DNA of 63,701 nucleotides, the filler included, from Thermoplasmatota archaeon (lineage in GTDB: Archaea > Thermoplasmatota > E2 > JACPAO01 > JAHFTW01): NCBI GenBank assembly GCA_041623215.1. It is 4 parts of 4 records of this genome, joined end to end, with 100 filler letters (N's around TTAATTAATTAA, not from the genome) between each part and the next. Parts side by side here need not be neighbours in the genome. Positions count along the whole stretch, not along the records: positions 1 to 18,427 come from JBFJXH010000025.1; 3 more parts are not named here. One strand, written 5' to 3'. Position numbers: made by a program. Shown here in pieces: positions 3,001-9,000 of this stretch (position 1 is the first letter of the stretch; each line of letters opens with the position of its first letter).

Positions 3001-6000
3001 GGTTGGCGTGGCGGGCTTGGCGGTGGGCGCGTTTGCCTACTTGGCCGCCGGAGGGTGGCTGATTTTTGCCGCCGGCGCTTTCTTCTTCAGCATCCACGCA
3101 ACCATGGCGGCCGTCCTTCCATCGCAGGTGAGCCGCATCGCGGGGCCCCGTGGCGGCCGTGGCCATGGCTTGCAGGCTGTGGTCGCGTATCTTGGAACTT
3201 TCCTCGCGGGACCGGTGTCCGGCTGGGCCCAGGGCCAAGGCCGTCCCCTTCTCACGGTTGTCGTGCTAGCTGCCCTGGCGTCGGTGGCGGCCGGGTTGAC
3301 GTGGCGGTGGCTTCGCGCGACGCCACTCAATGCCGGCTCCCCAACGGCTAAAACGCCCGCTTTGTGAGCGCTCAACATGGACCTTGCTCGTCGCGTGGCT
3401 GCCCTACGACGCCTTGGCGTCACTGTTGTGGCGCTGACGTTCGTACTCATGGTTCTCGGGTCGTGGGTCAAGGCCACCGGCAGCGGCTTATCTTGTCCGG
3501 ATTGGCCAGCCTGCTACGGCCAATGGATGCCACCGTTTCCTAGTTTGGAAAACGGGGGCACGGACCCTGCGACTGGTGAACCGGTGAGTTACACCCAGGC
3601 CCAGATTCTCTATGAATGGGCGCACAGGGCGGTCGCCTCCATCCTTGGCGTACCCATGTTGGCTTTCGCGATTGTTGCCTGGCGAGGCCGCGAATTGCAT
3701 CCTGCCACACGCTCCCTCCCAGTTGCGGCCATCGGCATTCTTGCCATCCAGATTCTCATCGGTGGGGCCACCGTCCTGCAAGGCAACCCCGCAGCGACGA
3801 CGACGCTGCACCTGGCGACAGCGACCCTGTTCTTTGGCACGGTCGTCACGGCCACGGCCTTTGTCTTCCTGCGCCCCGTTGCGGCGGCGGCACCCATTGT
3901 CGTGCGTGAAGTTCCCCGGGAGCGGCTTGTCTATCCGGGTGAGGCAGAGCCATGAGCGCCGCCGAGCCCTCGACGCCGTCGCTGCTGCGGGACTACGTGG
4001 AAATCAGCAAACCGCGTATCATTCTCCTTCTGCTGATTGTGGCGTGGGCGGCCATGTTCGTGGCCGATGGCGGCTTGCCGGGCGGGGTGGCCTTTGCCGC
4101 TGTCACGGTCGCGGGTATCGCAAGTACAGCTGCCAGTGGTGCGCTCAATCACGTCATCGAACGCAAGCGCGACCGCCGCATGGGGCGAACCGCCGACCGC
4201 CCCGTTGCTGCGGGGCGCATTTCGCCCCTGGCGGCTTCCGTTTATGGCGCCGTGATGACGCTGGTGGCGGTGGCGGCGCTCGCCGCACCCGGTCTGTGGC
4301 TCGCAGCGGCCTTGACGGCCGGCGCGGTGGCGTACTACCTGGTGGTGTACACGCTTATCCTGAAGCCAACCACGGCGCAAAACATTGTCATCGGCGGCTT
4401 TGCAGGATCGTTTCCAGCCCTCATTGGCTGGGCCGCGGTCACTGACAGCCTAGGTGTGGGGGCATGGTTGCTGGCTGTGCTTGTGTTCCTGTGGACGCCT
4501 GCTCACTTCTGGTCGCTGGCCTTGTTGTACAAGGAGGACTATGCGGCTGCCGATTACCCCATGATGCCCAATGTGCGCGGGGAGGTACACACGCGGCGCC
4601 TCATCGTCGCCTACTCGGTCTTGACGTTGCTTTGCAGTCTGGCGTTCGTTGCGCTTGGCCTGGCGGGCGTGCTCTACCTGGTGGCAGCGGCTGTTCTTGG
4701 GGGCCTACTGGTGGTCCGGGCGGCGGGCCTTCGAACGCACCCCGAGCCGGCTCGATACCGGAGCTTCTTCCTGTTCACGATTCAGTATCTTGGAATTCTT
4801 CTGGTGGTCCTCATGGTGGACCGCTTGCTTCCGGTCGCCGTGCCGTTCATCTAGGCGATGCCAGGGCACAACGTGTGCCGGCGCTAGGGGTAGCTTGGCA
4901 AGGCTGCGCCGCGTTGGTTGGCAAAGCGGAGCTCGTAGCCGGTGGCGATACTCGCCAGTTCACCAAGCACTTGGTACACGTGTGCACTAACGGCGTCTAG
5001 GGGCATCTCATCATCACAGCAATCACCTTCGGCTTGGGTTACGAAAGGCTCGAAGGTGCTGCCCGGCGTGTTTAGGCTGTCATCGGCCCCTTTCTGCGAA
5101 TGGACGCGGTGAAAGCCGCCAACCACGTTGCCGCACACCATGTACAGGACCGGTTCAGCCACCAGGTCCGCTTCCGTGCGAACATCCGTCGTGACGCCTT
5201 CTTGCACAATGACACTGGTGGTGGCTGCGCCGCCTTTGCTGCGGGCCATCTTTTCACGGCCCTTTGAGTTGATGTTCAGAATGTCCTCGGGCGAGTTCAC
5301 GGCCATGACGCCCATGCCATACGTGCCTGCATCCGCTTTGACAAAAACGCGTGGTTCGCGCCGGATGCCGTAATGCGTGAAGCGCTTGCGCATTTGCTCA
5401 AGCACGCGACCGACCGCTGCGGCCACCTCTTCAAGTCCTTCTTTGGCCTTGAAATCCACACCGTCCACGCGCTCATGGTAGGCTGACAGGAGCCATGGGT
5501 CGAGGCCAACGTAGGTCCCCAATTGGTCTGCCAACGCATTGACGATGCGGAAATGCTCCGACTTGCTACGGCGATGCCATCCCATCACGGGGGGCGGGGT
5601 GACGGGTTGAGCCAAGCCGTCGAGAATGGCGGGCGAACCATCGGAGAGGTCGTTGTTGAGAATCACCACGTCGGGAACCATGCCATTGGCGACTACGTCA
5701 TCGCCCTCTCGCTGCACGCCGTGGATGGTCAAGGGGTCGCCTTTGGCGGTGGTGGTGGCCAGGCTTGGCCACGCCTCGTCCGACAAACTGCCCACGGTCA
5801 CATGGTAGCCTGCGGCGGTGAACAAATCGGCAAGTTCCTTGAGATTCTGCAGGTACCATTTGTTGCGCGTGTGGGACTCTCCGATGAGTAGCAGGTCCCT
5901 TGCACTCGGATACACTTGCTGCATGTAGTGGCTGATTGCCTGCGACGCCGCGTCGCGGCTCCGGGTGGCGAGGTTGTTGAAGCCGGCTGGAAACGCGTTG

Positions 6001-9000
6001 CAATCAACGACGGCGGCCTTGTGGCGGTTGCGCCTGACGTCCACCGATGTGTAAACGGGACACAACACTTGGTTGCGGTGATAGGCCAGAAAGTCCTCAA
6101 CGCGCTCGTGTTCCTTGACGAGGATGGCATCCAGCTGACCGATGGCACCAAGCGGCGTGGCATCGTCTCCGGTCATGCCAAGTCCTCCAGGGTCACACCT
6201 TTCCACGTACCCCGCTCCACAAAGACCTCGTGCCACAAGTCGGCCACCAGTTGTTCGGCCGGTGAGCGAAAGCCGGGCCGCAGCGGACGTTTTCCAACCA
6301 GCTTCGCGGCCCGTTCTTCGAAGCGTTGAATCGCATGCGGAGCGGTCGCTCGCCCAGCCGGAACTTTGCGACGCCAAACTAACTCCTTGGGGAGACCCAC
6401 ATCGGCGACGGCTTTGCGGAAGATCCACTTCTCCATCGCCTCAGCAGCCGGTGCCAAAGGTGGCGTTGCCACTTTCCAACCCCAAGGCGCGGCACGACTG
6501 GCGGCGTGCAAGGGCCTGCTGAGGAAGGGCACGCGAACCTCGAGGCCGTGTGCCATGCTGTTGCGGTCCACGAGGCGGAGCTGGAAGTTGTTGAGTTGCC
6601 CTTGCTGGTCCCATTCCGCCAACGCCGAGCCCGAAAGATGGGTCAAGGCGACGGTGGTCGCGAGCTCTTCGGCGTGCGCTGGCGCAGCGGCCCGTATGCG
6701 TGCGAGGCGCTCCTTGGCCAGAGCCATGGGCTGCTTGTAGCGTTCATAGCCGCCCCATAATTCGTCGCTCCCCTGGCCACAAAGGCCAACGGTTACGTCC
6801 TGGCGCATGAAGGAAAACAGTGGTTCGAAGAAGAACTCAGTATAGTTGATGTTCTCATTGTGCCAGGCGTATTTGGGTAGTCCAGTCCAGACATCGTCGT
6901 CGTCAAAGAAGGTCTCCTTGTGCGTTGTGCCCAGGTGCTCGGCTAGGCGCCGCGCGGCCTGAAAGTCTTCCACATCTTCGGAATCGGCAATGGTGAACGT
7001 CTGGATGGGAGCATCGGCAAGAAGTGTCTGGTGGACCGCTGCAACGGCTGCCGAGTCCAAGCCACCCGAGAGAATCACACCAAGGGGTACGTCTGCCATG
7101 AGTTGCTCGTCAATGCTGGCAACGAAGCGCTCTCGGATGGCGCTGGCCGCCTCCGCGGGACTTGCAAAAGCCTCGTTGGCGACCTGGTAGTATGGCTGCC
7201 ACGCCACATGGCAATCGCCTCGCTGGTCGCCGGCGGAGAGAATCACGAAGGTTCCTGGCGGCAACTGGTGGACGCCCCGGAAGAGGGTTGCTTGCCCCGT
7301 CAAAAATTCGAGCGCCGCCCGTTCCTTGAGCCGGTCAAGGTCGGGCACCGGGAGAATGTCCGGGTGGACGAAGAGCGCCTTTTGTTCCGAGGCAAAAACC
7401 CACTCGCCGCCTGGGGTGCAGGCGTAAAAGAAAGGCTTGATTCCCCAGGGGTCACGGGCGATGGACAAGGTGCGAGCGTCCCGGTCCCAGAGCGCGAACG
7501 CGAACATTCCCTCCAGGCGCCCCAGCAGGCCTTCGAGGCCCCATTGGCGGTGGCCCTCAAGGAGCACTTCCGTGTCCGAGTGATCGGAGGCGAAGCGGCA
7601 ACCAAGCTCCTCCAACTGAGCCCTGAGTGAACGGTGATTGTAGATTTCGCCATTGAAGACAATGCAGCGGCTCCCATCGTGGCTCTGCATGGGCTGAGCG
7701 CCGAAGTCATGATCAATGATGGAGAGGCGCCTATGTCCAAGGGTAACGCCGTCGTCGAGCCAAATGCCTTCGCCGTCCGGGCCGCGATGCGACAAGGCAT
7801 CGGTCATGCGTCGAACAAGGTCGGGGTCTTCGCGACCCAAGATGCCGGCGATGCCGCACACAGCTTCGCCACCTTGGATGTGTGGTTAAGAGGTGTCCAA
7901 TGGGACCGAAAGGGGAAAGGGAAGGGAAAGGGGAAAAGAAGCGAGACGACGCTTATTCGTCGGCGCCGTAGTTGTCGCAGCCTTCGGGCAGCGTCTGGTT
8001 GGTTTCGCTGCAGCGAAGCGGCGTGAACTCACGCAGGAAGCCAGCTTCGCGGCGGGTCAAGGCCCAGTCCACTTCGTCGCGCGTGGTGTTCTCGGCGTTG
8101 TTGGCGATGCCACCGGCGAAGCCGTCAGGGTCCGCGGCGATGGCAGAGACATCTTCGACGGTGTTGTTGACGCCGTCGTTGGCCATGCCGGTAACCACGT
8201 CAACCGGGTCTTCCGGCGGGTCAGCCTCGGCTGCTGCACGGGTGAAGCACTCGGCGTTCGATTCGTCGTTGCGGTCCTCAATGTCCGCGCAGGAGTGGCT
8301 GCCGCAGCGGCTACCTTGTGTGAAGGAGCGGCCGTCGGGGCTCGTACCGGCAGTGTCAGTTCCGGACCATCCAAGGTCCCAGCACTTGTAGTTCAGGAGC
8401 TTGGCGTTGCAGGTGGGTGCGAAGCCTTCCCAGTAGTCGGTCATGAACTTCTTGACGTAGGGCTGGCCTTCAGGGGTCCAGGTTTCCCAGCGGCCAACGA
8501 CGTTGCCACCTTCATCGGCCCACGTTTCGTTGAAGCGCTTGGGCTGGAAGTGGTCTTGCGTGACGGTGCCGAGTTCGGGGTCCTCGTAGGTGATGTCTAG
8601 CTTGTTCCACACTTGGCCTTCGAGTTCACAAAGGTCGAGCGGCGGGTCAGCGACGACCGTCGAGGCGCGCACGCTGAATTCCGCGCCGGGAGCGCCGAGC
8701 CAGAGGTAAACGAGCAGGTGAGTGGCACCCGGAATGCGGGGGCAGTTTGCTTCGCCGCCGCCAGTGGCACAGCCGCTGTTACCCAAGTATTCCCAACGGT
8801 CGGGGCCGTTTTCGTCACTCGGGCTGAACTTGAACCAGCGAGCGTCGAAGTCGGGCGCTAAGCCACACGCCGGGCCGGGGGAGTCATAGCATTCGTTGCC
8901 TAGCACGCTAACGCCGGTAATCTTCGGGGAACCAATCTCGAACAGAATGGAGTCGACGCCCTGAATGCCGGTGCCGGCTTCGCCATCGTTCGGGTCGGCG

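What a model noticed while it worked through the whole genome (the two positions that open the first line are those of the whole stretch)
4884..7861. asnB-gshA operon without gshB: a predicted amidated gamma-glutamylcysteine thiol shared with marine group II archaea
An ATP-grasp-type gshA overlaps the end of an AsnB-family glutamine amidotransferase gene, the pair is kept from this order to Poseidoniales, and no gshB is found although the genome has GSTs, Grx3, Grx4-BolA. The two enzymes are predicted to make an undescribed low-molecular-weight thiol, most simply gamma-Glu-Cys-amide. If true it names the redox thiol of the most abundant surface-ocean heterotrophic archaea and a new job for an AsnB-type enzyme.
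Evidence so far: g00643 passes TIGR02049 gshA (396 bits, cut 294; call 198). asnB directly upstream on the same strand in 33 of 35 gshA loci (20 order, 15 other phylum genomes; one exception is a contig end). In the order gshA is in 24 of 38 genomes; 12 of the 14 without it also have no AsnB at E 1e-20, so this AsnB is not universal housekeeping. GshB (PF02951) in 0 of 38. 11 of 11 and 4 of 8 genomes of two phylum families carry gshA; one such gene is 100% identical to a Poseidonia record. Tables: pair near in 227-252 genomes, GshA in 304 archaea of which 283 in this phylum. PMC7278568 (passages) reports no archaeal GshB.
(Added by a program. Inside this text positions count along the whole contig: they may not be those of the stretch shown here. 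"Call 12" and the like, gene names such as g00115 and contig names such as C1 are that model's own, and its searches are not shown. The text may have been shortened before it was handed on; [...] marks where a part breaks off. The agent that wrote the report below was given it as the finding of a first reader that could run no searches.)

Follow-up and report, generated by a model that had tools for sequence, protein, structure and literature searches.

The report
Amidated thiol pathway in marine archaea
These archaea, including abundant ocean Marine Group II, pair a glutathione-precursor gene with an amide-forming enzyme instead of the usual glutathione synthetase, and their iron-sulfur glutaredoxin lacks its glycine-gripping arginine wherever that enzyme is present, so they likely make an undescribed thiol, probably gamma-glutamyl-cysteine amide.

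Summary
asnB (7861-6173) overlaps gshA (6176-4884); the two are adjacent in 22/24 order genomes, and no gshB was found in 0/80 genomes (none over cut-off). Earlier scan notes saw the same pair on other DNA.

New evidence favours amidation over asparagine synthesis. The AsnB clade keeps its glutaminase and adenylation residues but has E348Q and R387L (E. coli numbering). It shares the Gln with the dipeptide-amidating enzyme AsnO.

The monothiol glutaredoxin Grx4 follows asnB, not gshA. Its glycine-carboxylate-binding Arg is Ile/Val in 57/57 sequences from asnB-positive genomes. It is Arg in 9/10 genomes that lost asnB (two allele origins, at least three separate losses) and in 12/12 outside controls, including two haloarchaea.

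Against, or complicating: 16 Thalassarchaeaceae-like genomes keep asnB under purifying selection without gshA, so they would have to amidate an imported thiol. Dithiol glutaredoxins keep the Arg. No glutathione reductase was found (0/5). None of 80 genomes has GatB, so free asparagine is needed. Nothing is tested biochemically.

Verdict: likely gamma-Glu-Cys-NH2 (0.55); some AsnB-made uncharged thiol end about 0.7.

The parts
6173..7861 (-). asnB-family glutamine amidotransferase (562 aa, GTG start). Cys2, R45, N70/G71/E72, D96, SGGLD, D366/E367 and K499 are intact; Q363 and L430 replace E. coli E348 and R387. Predicted thiol C-terminal amidotransferase.
4884..6176 (-). gshA, ATP-grasp (PF08886/TIGR02049, 3K1T-type) glutamate-cysteine ligase, 430 aa from ATG 6176
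   Evidence: 49 invariant columns shared with bacterial homologues whose next gene is gshB
6173..6176 (-). ATGA overlap of the asnB stop and gshA start (translational coupling inferred)

Best explanation
GshA likely joins Glu and Cys into gamma-Glu-Cys, and the AsnB-type enzyme then probably adenylates the Cys carboxyl and amidates it with ammonia from glutamine, which would give gamma-Glu-Cys-NH2 in place of glutathione. This uncharged end would replace the glycine, and Grx4-BolA appears adapted to it as an Fe-S ligand. In the window's order, part of the free gamma-Glu-Cys probably also feeds EgtB/EgtC ergothioneine synthesis. Streamlined f11 genomes that lost gshA but kept asnB would amidate an imported thiol; those that lost asnB too regained a glutathione-type Grx4. 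Shown: gene order, distributions, residues. Inferred: both activities, the product, and import.
For: (1) asnB stands beside gshA where bacteria have gshB (19/21 against 0/21). No gshB or GCS2 was found in 80 genomes.
(2) The AsnB orthologue occurs only in the four families that have gshA.
(3) Active site: the Gln-hydrolysing and adenylation residues are present in 24-25 of 25 clade rows. E348 is Gln in 25/25 (E/D in 110/128 and Q in 3/128 other relatives). R387 is Leu in 25/25 (K/R in 104/128). Human E364 and R403 bind aspartyl-AMP and are conserved in known Asn synthetases (PMC6748925, PMC11615228, passages). NAGGN AsnO, which amidates an N-acylated dipeptide (PMC8070244, passages), also has GQG.
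(4) The Grx4 residue matching HsGrx5 Arg97, which contacts the glycine carboxyl of GSH (PMC7138851, passages; alignment), is Ile/Val in 57/57 sequences from 56 asnB-positive genomes, including 16/16 asnB-only genomes. It is Arg in 9/10 asnB-negative genomes and in 12/12 outside Grx4, including 2 haloarchaea, a group that uses free gamma-Glu-Cys (PMC7278568 section 4). The asnB losses are true deletions at an assembled syntenic site in 10/10 and lie in at least 3 places on a GatE tree. The Arg alleles have two origins, one shared across genera against the GatE tree.
(5) A glutaredoxin-like gene abuts asnB upstream in 6 order genomes; GST-like plus HxlR genes lie upstream in 2 more.
(6) Grx4 is in 0/9 gshA-negative order genomes and EgtC in 0/11, against 16/20 gshA-positive. 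This fits GshA making gamma-Glu-Cys.
(7) G201, G195 and G012 have AsnRS but no AsnB, AsnA or GatB, so Asn synthesis is dispensable in these lineages.
Against: 16 f11 genomes keep a full-length asnB without gshA, with dN/dS 0.08-0.18 in unsaturated pairs. They have no GCS2 (12 of the 16 tested) and no PF04262 (0/5), so an unshown import route is needed.
G195 lost asnB but keeps the Ile-type Grx4.
The Arg alleles come from only two origins, so the counts overstate independence.
Dithiol glutaredoxins keep the Arg in 9/11 asnB-positive f11 genomes and in G000. In 6/16 order Grx4 an Arg sits one residue further on.
No glutathione-type reductase was found (0/5).
The clade is not sister to AsnO, and D384Q is common outside it.
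All 80 genomes lack GatB, so they need free Asn, and this is G000's only AsnB.
No biochemical test exists.
Confidence: 0.55

Rival explanations
1. AsnB does amidate the thiol, but the product is glutathione amide (gamma-Glu-Cys-Gly-NH2) or another neutral-ended variant, with glycine added by an unrecognised ligase or with GSH taken up.
For: Grx4 covariation shows only loss of the terminal carboxylate contact. asnB-only genomes would most easily import GSH (inference), and their AsnBs share substitutions V431A/G, F349W and P373S. RimK-like ATP-grasps are present in 65/80 genomes. Glutathione amide is a known thiol (PMC6336425, passages).
Against: No GshB in 80 genomes. No RimK-like hit in gshA-positive G008, G010, G017 or G331. 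The substitutions arose once, G331 has them with gshA, and the position matches tunnel residue Ala404 (PMC11615228, passages).
Confidence: 0.15
2. AsnB is a divergent asparagine synthetase that supplies AsnRS and merely sits next to gshA; the thiol is plain gamma-Glu-Cys, used directly and for ergothioneine.
For: Passes TIGR01536. It is the only AsnB in G000. AsnRS is present and GatB absent. asnB is kept without gshA in 16 genomes. egtB-egtD-egtC lie on C94.
Against: TIGR01536 is also passed by non-Asn enzymes. E348 and R387 are replaced. It does not explain why Grx4 follows asnB, or why haloarchaeal Grx4 keeps the Arg. There is no EgtC orthologue in 0/48 f11/f28 genomes and no EgtB in 0/4.
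Confidence: 0.12
3. AsnB amidates an unrelated N-acylated or sugar acid; its link to gshA and the Grx4 change reflect shared history or a protein contact.
For: AsnB-family enzymes act on many acids. The Arg alleles have few origins. Dithiol Grx and one GST family show no matching change (only 9 of 20 GST loci were parsed).
Against: The overlap is conserved from about 40% to 70% identity through rearranged neighbourhoods. Glutaredoxin or GST genes join the operon. Within-genus contrasts in g96 and g121 still follow asnB.
Confidence: 0.18

Closest known systems
Bacterial gshA(PF08886/TIGR02049, PDB 3K1T)-gshB glutathione operon
   Same: Same GshA family (396.5 bits; 3K1T E 1e-86); GSTs, Grx3 and Grx4-BolA are present in the genome.
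   Different: No gshB (0/80); an AsnB-type amidotransferase is coupled upstream instead; Grx4 lacks the glycine-carboxylate Arg.
Glutathione amide (GASH) of Chromatium/Marichromatium
   Same: A gamma-glutamyl thiol with an amidated C-terminus; GASH autoxidises sevenfold slower than GSH with copper (PMC6336425, passages).
   Different: The predicted product has no glycine. The passages read name no GASH-forming enzyme, and one study did not detect GASH in A. vinosum (PMC4213376, passages). No GAR-like reductase here.
AsnO-Ngg pathway for NAGGN
   Same: An AsnB-type enzyme in an operon with a peptide ligase amidates the finished dipeptide (PMC8070244, passages); shared GQG(A/S)DE motif.
   Different: Fails TIGR03104 (255.7 against 570.1); not sister in the tree; AsnO keeps R387; its product is an osmolyte without a thiol.
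Haloarchaeal gamma-Glu-Cys system (GCS2-type GshA plus GCR)
   Same: Archaeal thiol built without GshB (PMC7278568, section 4).
   Different: Unrelated ligase family (GCS2 0/80); free acid stabilised by high salt; two haloarchaeal Grx4 keep the Arg.
E. coli/human asparagine synthetase B
   Same: Same fold (Foldseek 1CT9 E 3e-31) and the glutaminase and adenylation residues.
   Different: Fails NF006949 (287.7 against 499); E348Q, R387L, and no TTIR loop.

Membership tests
PF08886/TIGR02049 glutamate-cysteine ligase | Score above the curated cut-off and conserved ATP-grasp residues | tested here: met
   396.5 against 293.9; 49 invariant columns with 6 bacterial homologues
PF08886/TIGR02049 glutamate-cysteine ligase | Makes gamma-Glu-Cys | not testable with these tools
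   Indirect only: bacterial homologues precede gshB in 19/21; EgtC and Grx4 are confined to gshA-positive order genomes or G021
Glutathione (GshA-GshB) pathway | GshB or GshF present | tested here: not met
   TIGR01380 0/80 over cut-off; PF04262, which covers the GshF N-terminal part, 0/5 in asnB-only genomes only
Asparagine synthetase B (E. coli/human type) | NF006949 cut-off | tested here: not met
   287.7 against 499
Asparagine synthetase B (E. coli/human type) | Aspartyl-binding Glu364/Asp400/Arg403 (human numbering) | tested here: not met
   Q363, Q427, L430 in 25/25 clade rows; Asp367/Glu368/Lys kept
AsnB-family Gln amidotransferase (TIGR01536, broad) | N-terminal Cys, R/N/G/D glutamine site, SGGxD loop, catalytic Lys, score over cut-off | tested here: met
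   the model is also passed by AsnO and XrtA enzymes
NAGGN amidotransferase AsnO (TIGR03104) | Score over cut-off and ngg partner | tested here: not met
   255.7 against 570.1; no ngg next to it; only the GQG motif is shared
Glutathione amide system | Amidated thiol detected | not testable with these tools
   needs LC-MS
Glutathione amide system | Dedicated GAR/GR-type reductase | tested here: not met
   0/5 over the TIGR01424 cut-off; hits read as dihydrolipoamide dehydrogenases, with one extra unassigned reductase in G037

The most novel reading that the evidence does not exclude
Poseidoniales and a sister Thermoplasmatota order use a new low-molecular-weight thiol, gamma-Glu-Cys-amide, made by an AsnB-type enzyme that replaces glutathione synthetase. 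Their Fe-S glutaredoxin is retooled for it. Streamlined ocean lineages step from synthesis, to amidating scavenged thiol, to plain glutathione use, swapping Grx4 alleles horizontally at the last step.
Probability: 0.5. Interest if true: 0.88.

Novelty: new variant of a known kind. Interest (0 to 1): 0.8.

Why it matters
The low-molecular-weight thiol of Marine Group II archaea was not found in print by my searches. This work gives a specific, cheaply testable molecule and two enzymes. It would add a third way to finish gamma-Glu-Cys (glycine in most cells, free acid in halophiles, amide here) and suggest how thiol amides such as glutathione amide could be made. A single Grx4 residue would predict from sequence which thiol a genome uses, and asnB-only genomes point to uptake of dissolved organic sulfur by surface-ocean archaea. 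It would also correct a widespread 'asparagine synthase' annotation.

Tried and rejected
Ergothioneine as the general reason for gshA. True candidates exist in the order (17/32 genomes with EgtC at E<1e-40), but there are none in 48 f11/f28 genomes and no EgtB in 4, so it cannot explain Poseidoniales.

RimK-like ATP-grasp as a GshB substitute: its distribution does not follow gshA.

A second gamma-Glu-Cys ligase in asnB-only genomes: not found.

Decay of orphan asnB: rejected (many pairs had saturated dS).

Assembly gaps as the cause of asnB absence: rejected in 10/10.

Covariation in dithiol Grx (17 of 20 loci parsed) and a GST (9 of 20 parsed): none seen.

D384Q as a marker: not diagnostic.

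V431A/G as a substrate switch: one event, at a tunnel position, so not used as support.

RNA runs laid on a Poseidoniaceae locus: two cover it evenly like DNA and two patchily, so no conclusion on transcription.

Promoter/terminator scan: at chance level.

The AlphaFold model (pLDDT 89.8) and Foldseek give only the family fold.

Paper searches returned nothing useful; the E. coli Glu-348 mutagenesis is recalled, not seen.

No complex prediction was run, as binding is not claimed. Supplements of the papers were not opened; the alignments there (PMC6748925 Fig. S7, PMC11615228 Fig. S11) bear on 'conserved in known Asn synthetases'.
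Full report
Observation. On contig C25 of G000, asnB (7861-6173, 562 aa) and gshA (6176-4884, 430 aa) overlap by ATGA on the minus strand. gshA passes TIGR02049 (396.5 against 293.9) and matches PDB 3K1T. asnB passes the broad TIGR01536 but not the E. 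coli AsnB, NAGGN or XrtA models; its best PDB sequence match is the hydroxyamidotransferase TsnB9. The convergent ctaA-cyoE genes are not part of the unit.

Distribution. In the order, 24/38 genomes have gshA and 25/38 the asnB orthologue: the same 24 plus G021, where it ends at a contig end. The genes are adjacent in 22/24. In 301 phylum genomes, 64 have both, 9 asnB only and none gshA only, all within four families. Two of these are Poseidoniales by the names of near-identical or close proteins: f28 Poseidoniaceae and f11 Thalassarchaeaceae. f28 has gshA in 47/47, f11 in only 16/61. GshB and GCS2 are not found in an 80-genome panel. The bacterial loci of this gshA type have gshB next in 19/21 and never asnB. 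In a partial metagenome scan, 8/80 loci belong to the clade and 6 of them have gshA next.

Of 22 gshA-negative f11 genomes in the panel, 12 keep the orthologous asnB at the same syntenic site with gshA cleanly gone, and four more were found. These genes are full length, keep their motifs and have dN/dS 0.08-0.18 where dS is not saturated. So AsnB has a use without GshA. Taken alone this favours asparagine synthesis, the more so as none of 80 genomes has GatB and G000 and 5/5 others use AsnRS. However, three 91-97% complete genomes have no AsnB, AsnA or GatB at all, so these lineages can live on scavenged Asn.

Active site. Against E. coli AsnB, the clade keeps Cys1, R49, N74, G75, D98, the SGGxD loop, D351/E352 and K449. 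It has Gln for E348 (25/25) and Leu for R387 (25/25); 128 other relatives have E/D in 110 and K/R in 104. The human equivalents E364 and R403 hold the amino and carboxyl ends of aspartyl-AMP and are described as conserved in known Asn synthetases (PMC6748925 and PMC11615228, passages). NAGGN AsnO, which amidates an N-acetylated dipeptide (PMC8070244, passages), has the same GQG, though it is not a sister clade and passes TIGR01536 as well. The inference is an intact Gln-dependent amide former whose substrate lacks a free amine beside the activated carboxyl, as in gamma-Glu-Cys.

The strongest new evidence is in another gene. The monothiol glutaredoxin Grx4, next to bolA, uses the cell's thiol as an Fe-S ligand. 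Its helix-3 residue equal to HsGrx5 Arg97 contacts the glycine carboxyl of GSH (PMC7138851, passages; alignment). Grx4 was found in 66/80 genomes. The residue is Ile or Val in 57/57 sequences from 56 asnB-positive genomes, including 16/16 asnB-only ones, and Arg in 9/10 genomes lacking asnB. A second position four residues on changes with it (Cys/Ala/Gly against Lys/Arg). All 12 outside Grx4 that I read, out of 32 records, have Arg, including two haloarchaea, a group that uses free gamma-Glu-Cys (PMC7278568, section 4).

These asnB losses are real and repeated. In the ten asnB-negative genomes the site is assembled and empty. On a GatE tree (17 of 20 fetched genes parsed; g89 missing) they fall in three places, two of them beside asnB-keeping members of the same genus. 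A Grx4 tree with helix 3 masked gives two origins of the Arg type: one allele with a five-residue insertion shared across g96, g121 and g86 against the GatE tree, and one in g89. So the events are few, not nine, but the pocket follows asnB rather than gshA. That is hard to explain if AsnB only made asparagine.

Supporting context. A glutaredoxin-like gene abuts asnB upstream in G007, G008, G010, G016, G017 and G035. GST-like and HxlR genes lie upstream in G036 and G037, and a DJ-1/PfpI gene follows gshA in G037. In the order, Grx4 is absent from 9/9 and EgtC from 11/11 gshA-negative genomes. G000 has egtB-egtD-egtC on C94, with the gamma-Glu-Cys-type EgtB motifs as I recall them, so free gamma-Glu-Cys is probably also drawn off there. 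Poseidoniales lack this route.

Results against. G195 lost asnB and keeps the Ile type. Dithiol glutaredoxins keep Arg in 9/11 asnB-positive f11 genomes and in G000. Six of 16 order Grx4 have an Arg one residue on. No glutathione reductase or GGT was found in five genomes each, so a recycled redox-buffer role is unshown and an Fe-S ligand role is the better supported. Import in asnB-only genomes is assumed. RNA data were uninformative.

Mechanism and rivals. Most likely, GshA makes gamma-Glu-Cys and AsnB amidates its Cys carboxyl, giving gamma-Glu-Cys-NH2 (0.55). A rationale is protection from copper-driven autoxidation, known for glutathione amide and for gamma-Glu-Cys in high salt (PMC6336425, passages; PMC7278568, section 4). 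The rivals are glutathione amide or a similar neutral-ended thiol (0.15), asparagine synthetase beside a plain gamma-Glu-Cys pathway (0.12), and an unrelated substrate (0.18).

Novelty. It works like AsnO-Ngg in logic and like glutathione amide in chemistry, but is a member of neither. Searches (listings only) showed no paper on this pair or molecule; the library lacks most subscription papers. Two earlier notes of this scan report the same pair on other DNA, and a word search for the Grx4 link found none. Class: new variant of a known kind; interest 0.8.

Noticed in passing
L162:1125-4282 (NZ_CP023408, Streptomyces fungicidicus plasmid): A GCS2-type glutamate-cysteine ligase (passes NF010041) lies directly upstream of a TIGR03104 NAGGN-type amidotransferase, with an alpha/beta hydrolase rather than ngg after it. 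It may be an independent ligase-plus-amidotransferase pair.
   Followed up: no
G000 C94:382-4386 (L107): egtB, a membrane-protein gene, egtD and egtC form a cluster: ergothioneine synthesis in a Thermoplasmatota order, with EgtC in 17/32 order genomes.
   Followed up: partly
L219, L231, L247, L251, L253, L265, L278 (f11 Grx4): One Grx4 allele with a five-residue insertion is shared by three genera against the GatE tree, which suggests horizontal replacement at the bolA-grx4 locus.
   Followed up: yes
L152 and L153 (G331): This genome has two gshA copies in a genus whose other three sampled members have none.
   Followed up: partly
protein P0126 cluster: Undinarchaeales AsnBs fall in the sister group and share the GQG motif and the loss of R387; their gene neighbours were not seen.
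   Followed up: no
G201, G195, G012: AsnRS is present but no AsnA, AsnB or GatB was found: apparent asparagine auxotrophy.
   Followed up: partly
window 9783-10319 (-): An HxlR/RrpA-like regulator lies 1.9 kb upstream of asnB; in G036 and G037 a homologue lies just upstream of asnB.
   Followed up: partly
L229:1483-2886 (G037): A second pyridine-nucleotide disulfide reductase that is not the DLD; a candidate thiol reductase in that genome only.
   Followed up: no
window 18428-18527, 36678-36777, 54720-54819: N spacers: the window joins four separate contigs (C25, C27, C28, C68).
   Followed up: yes
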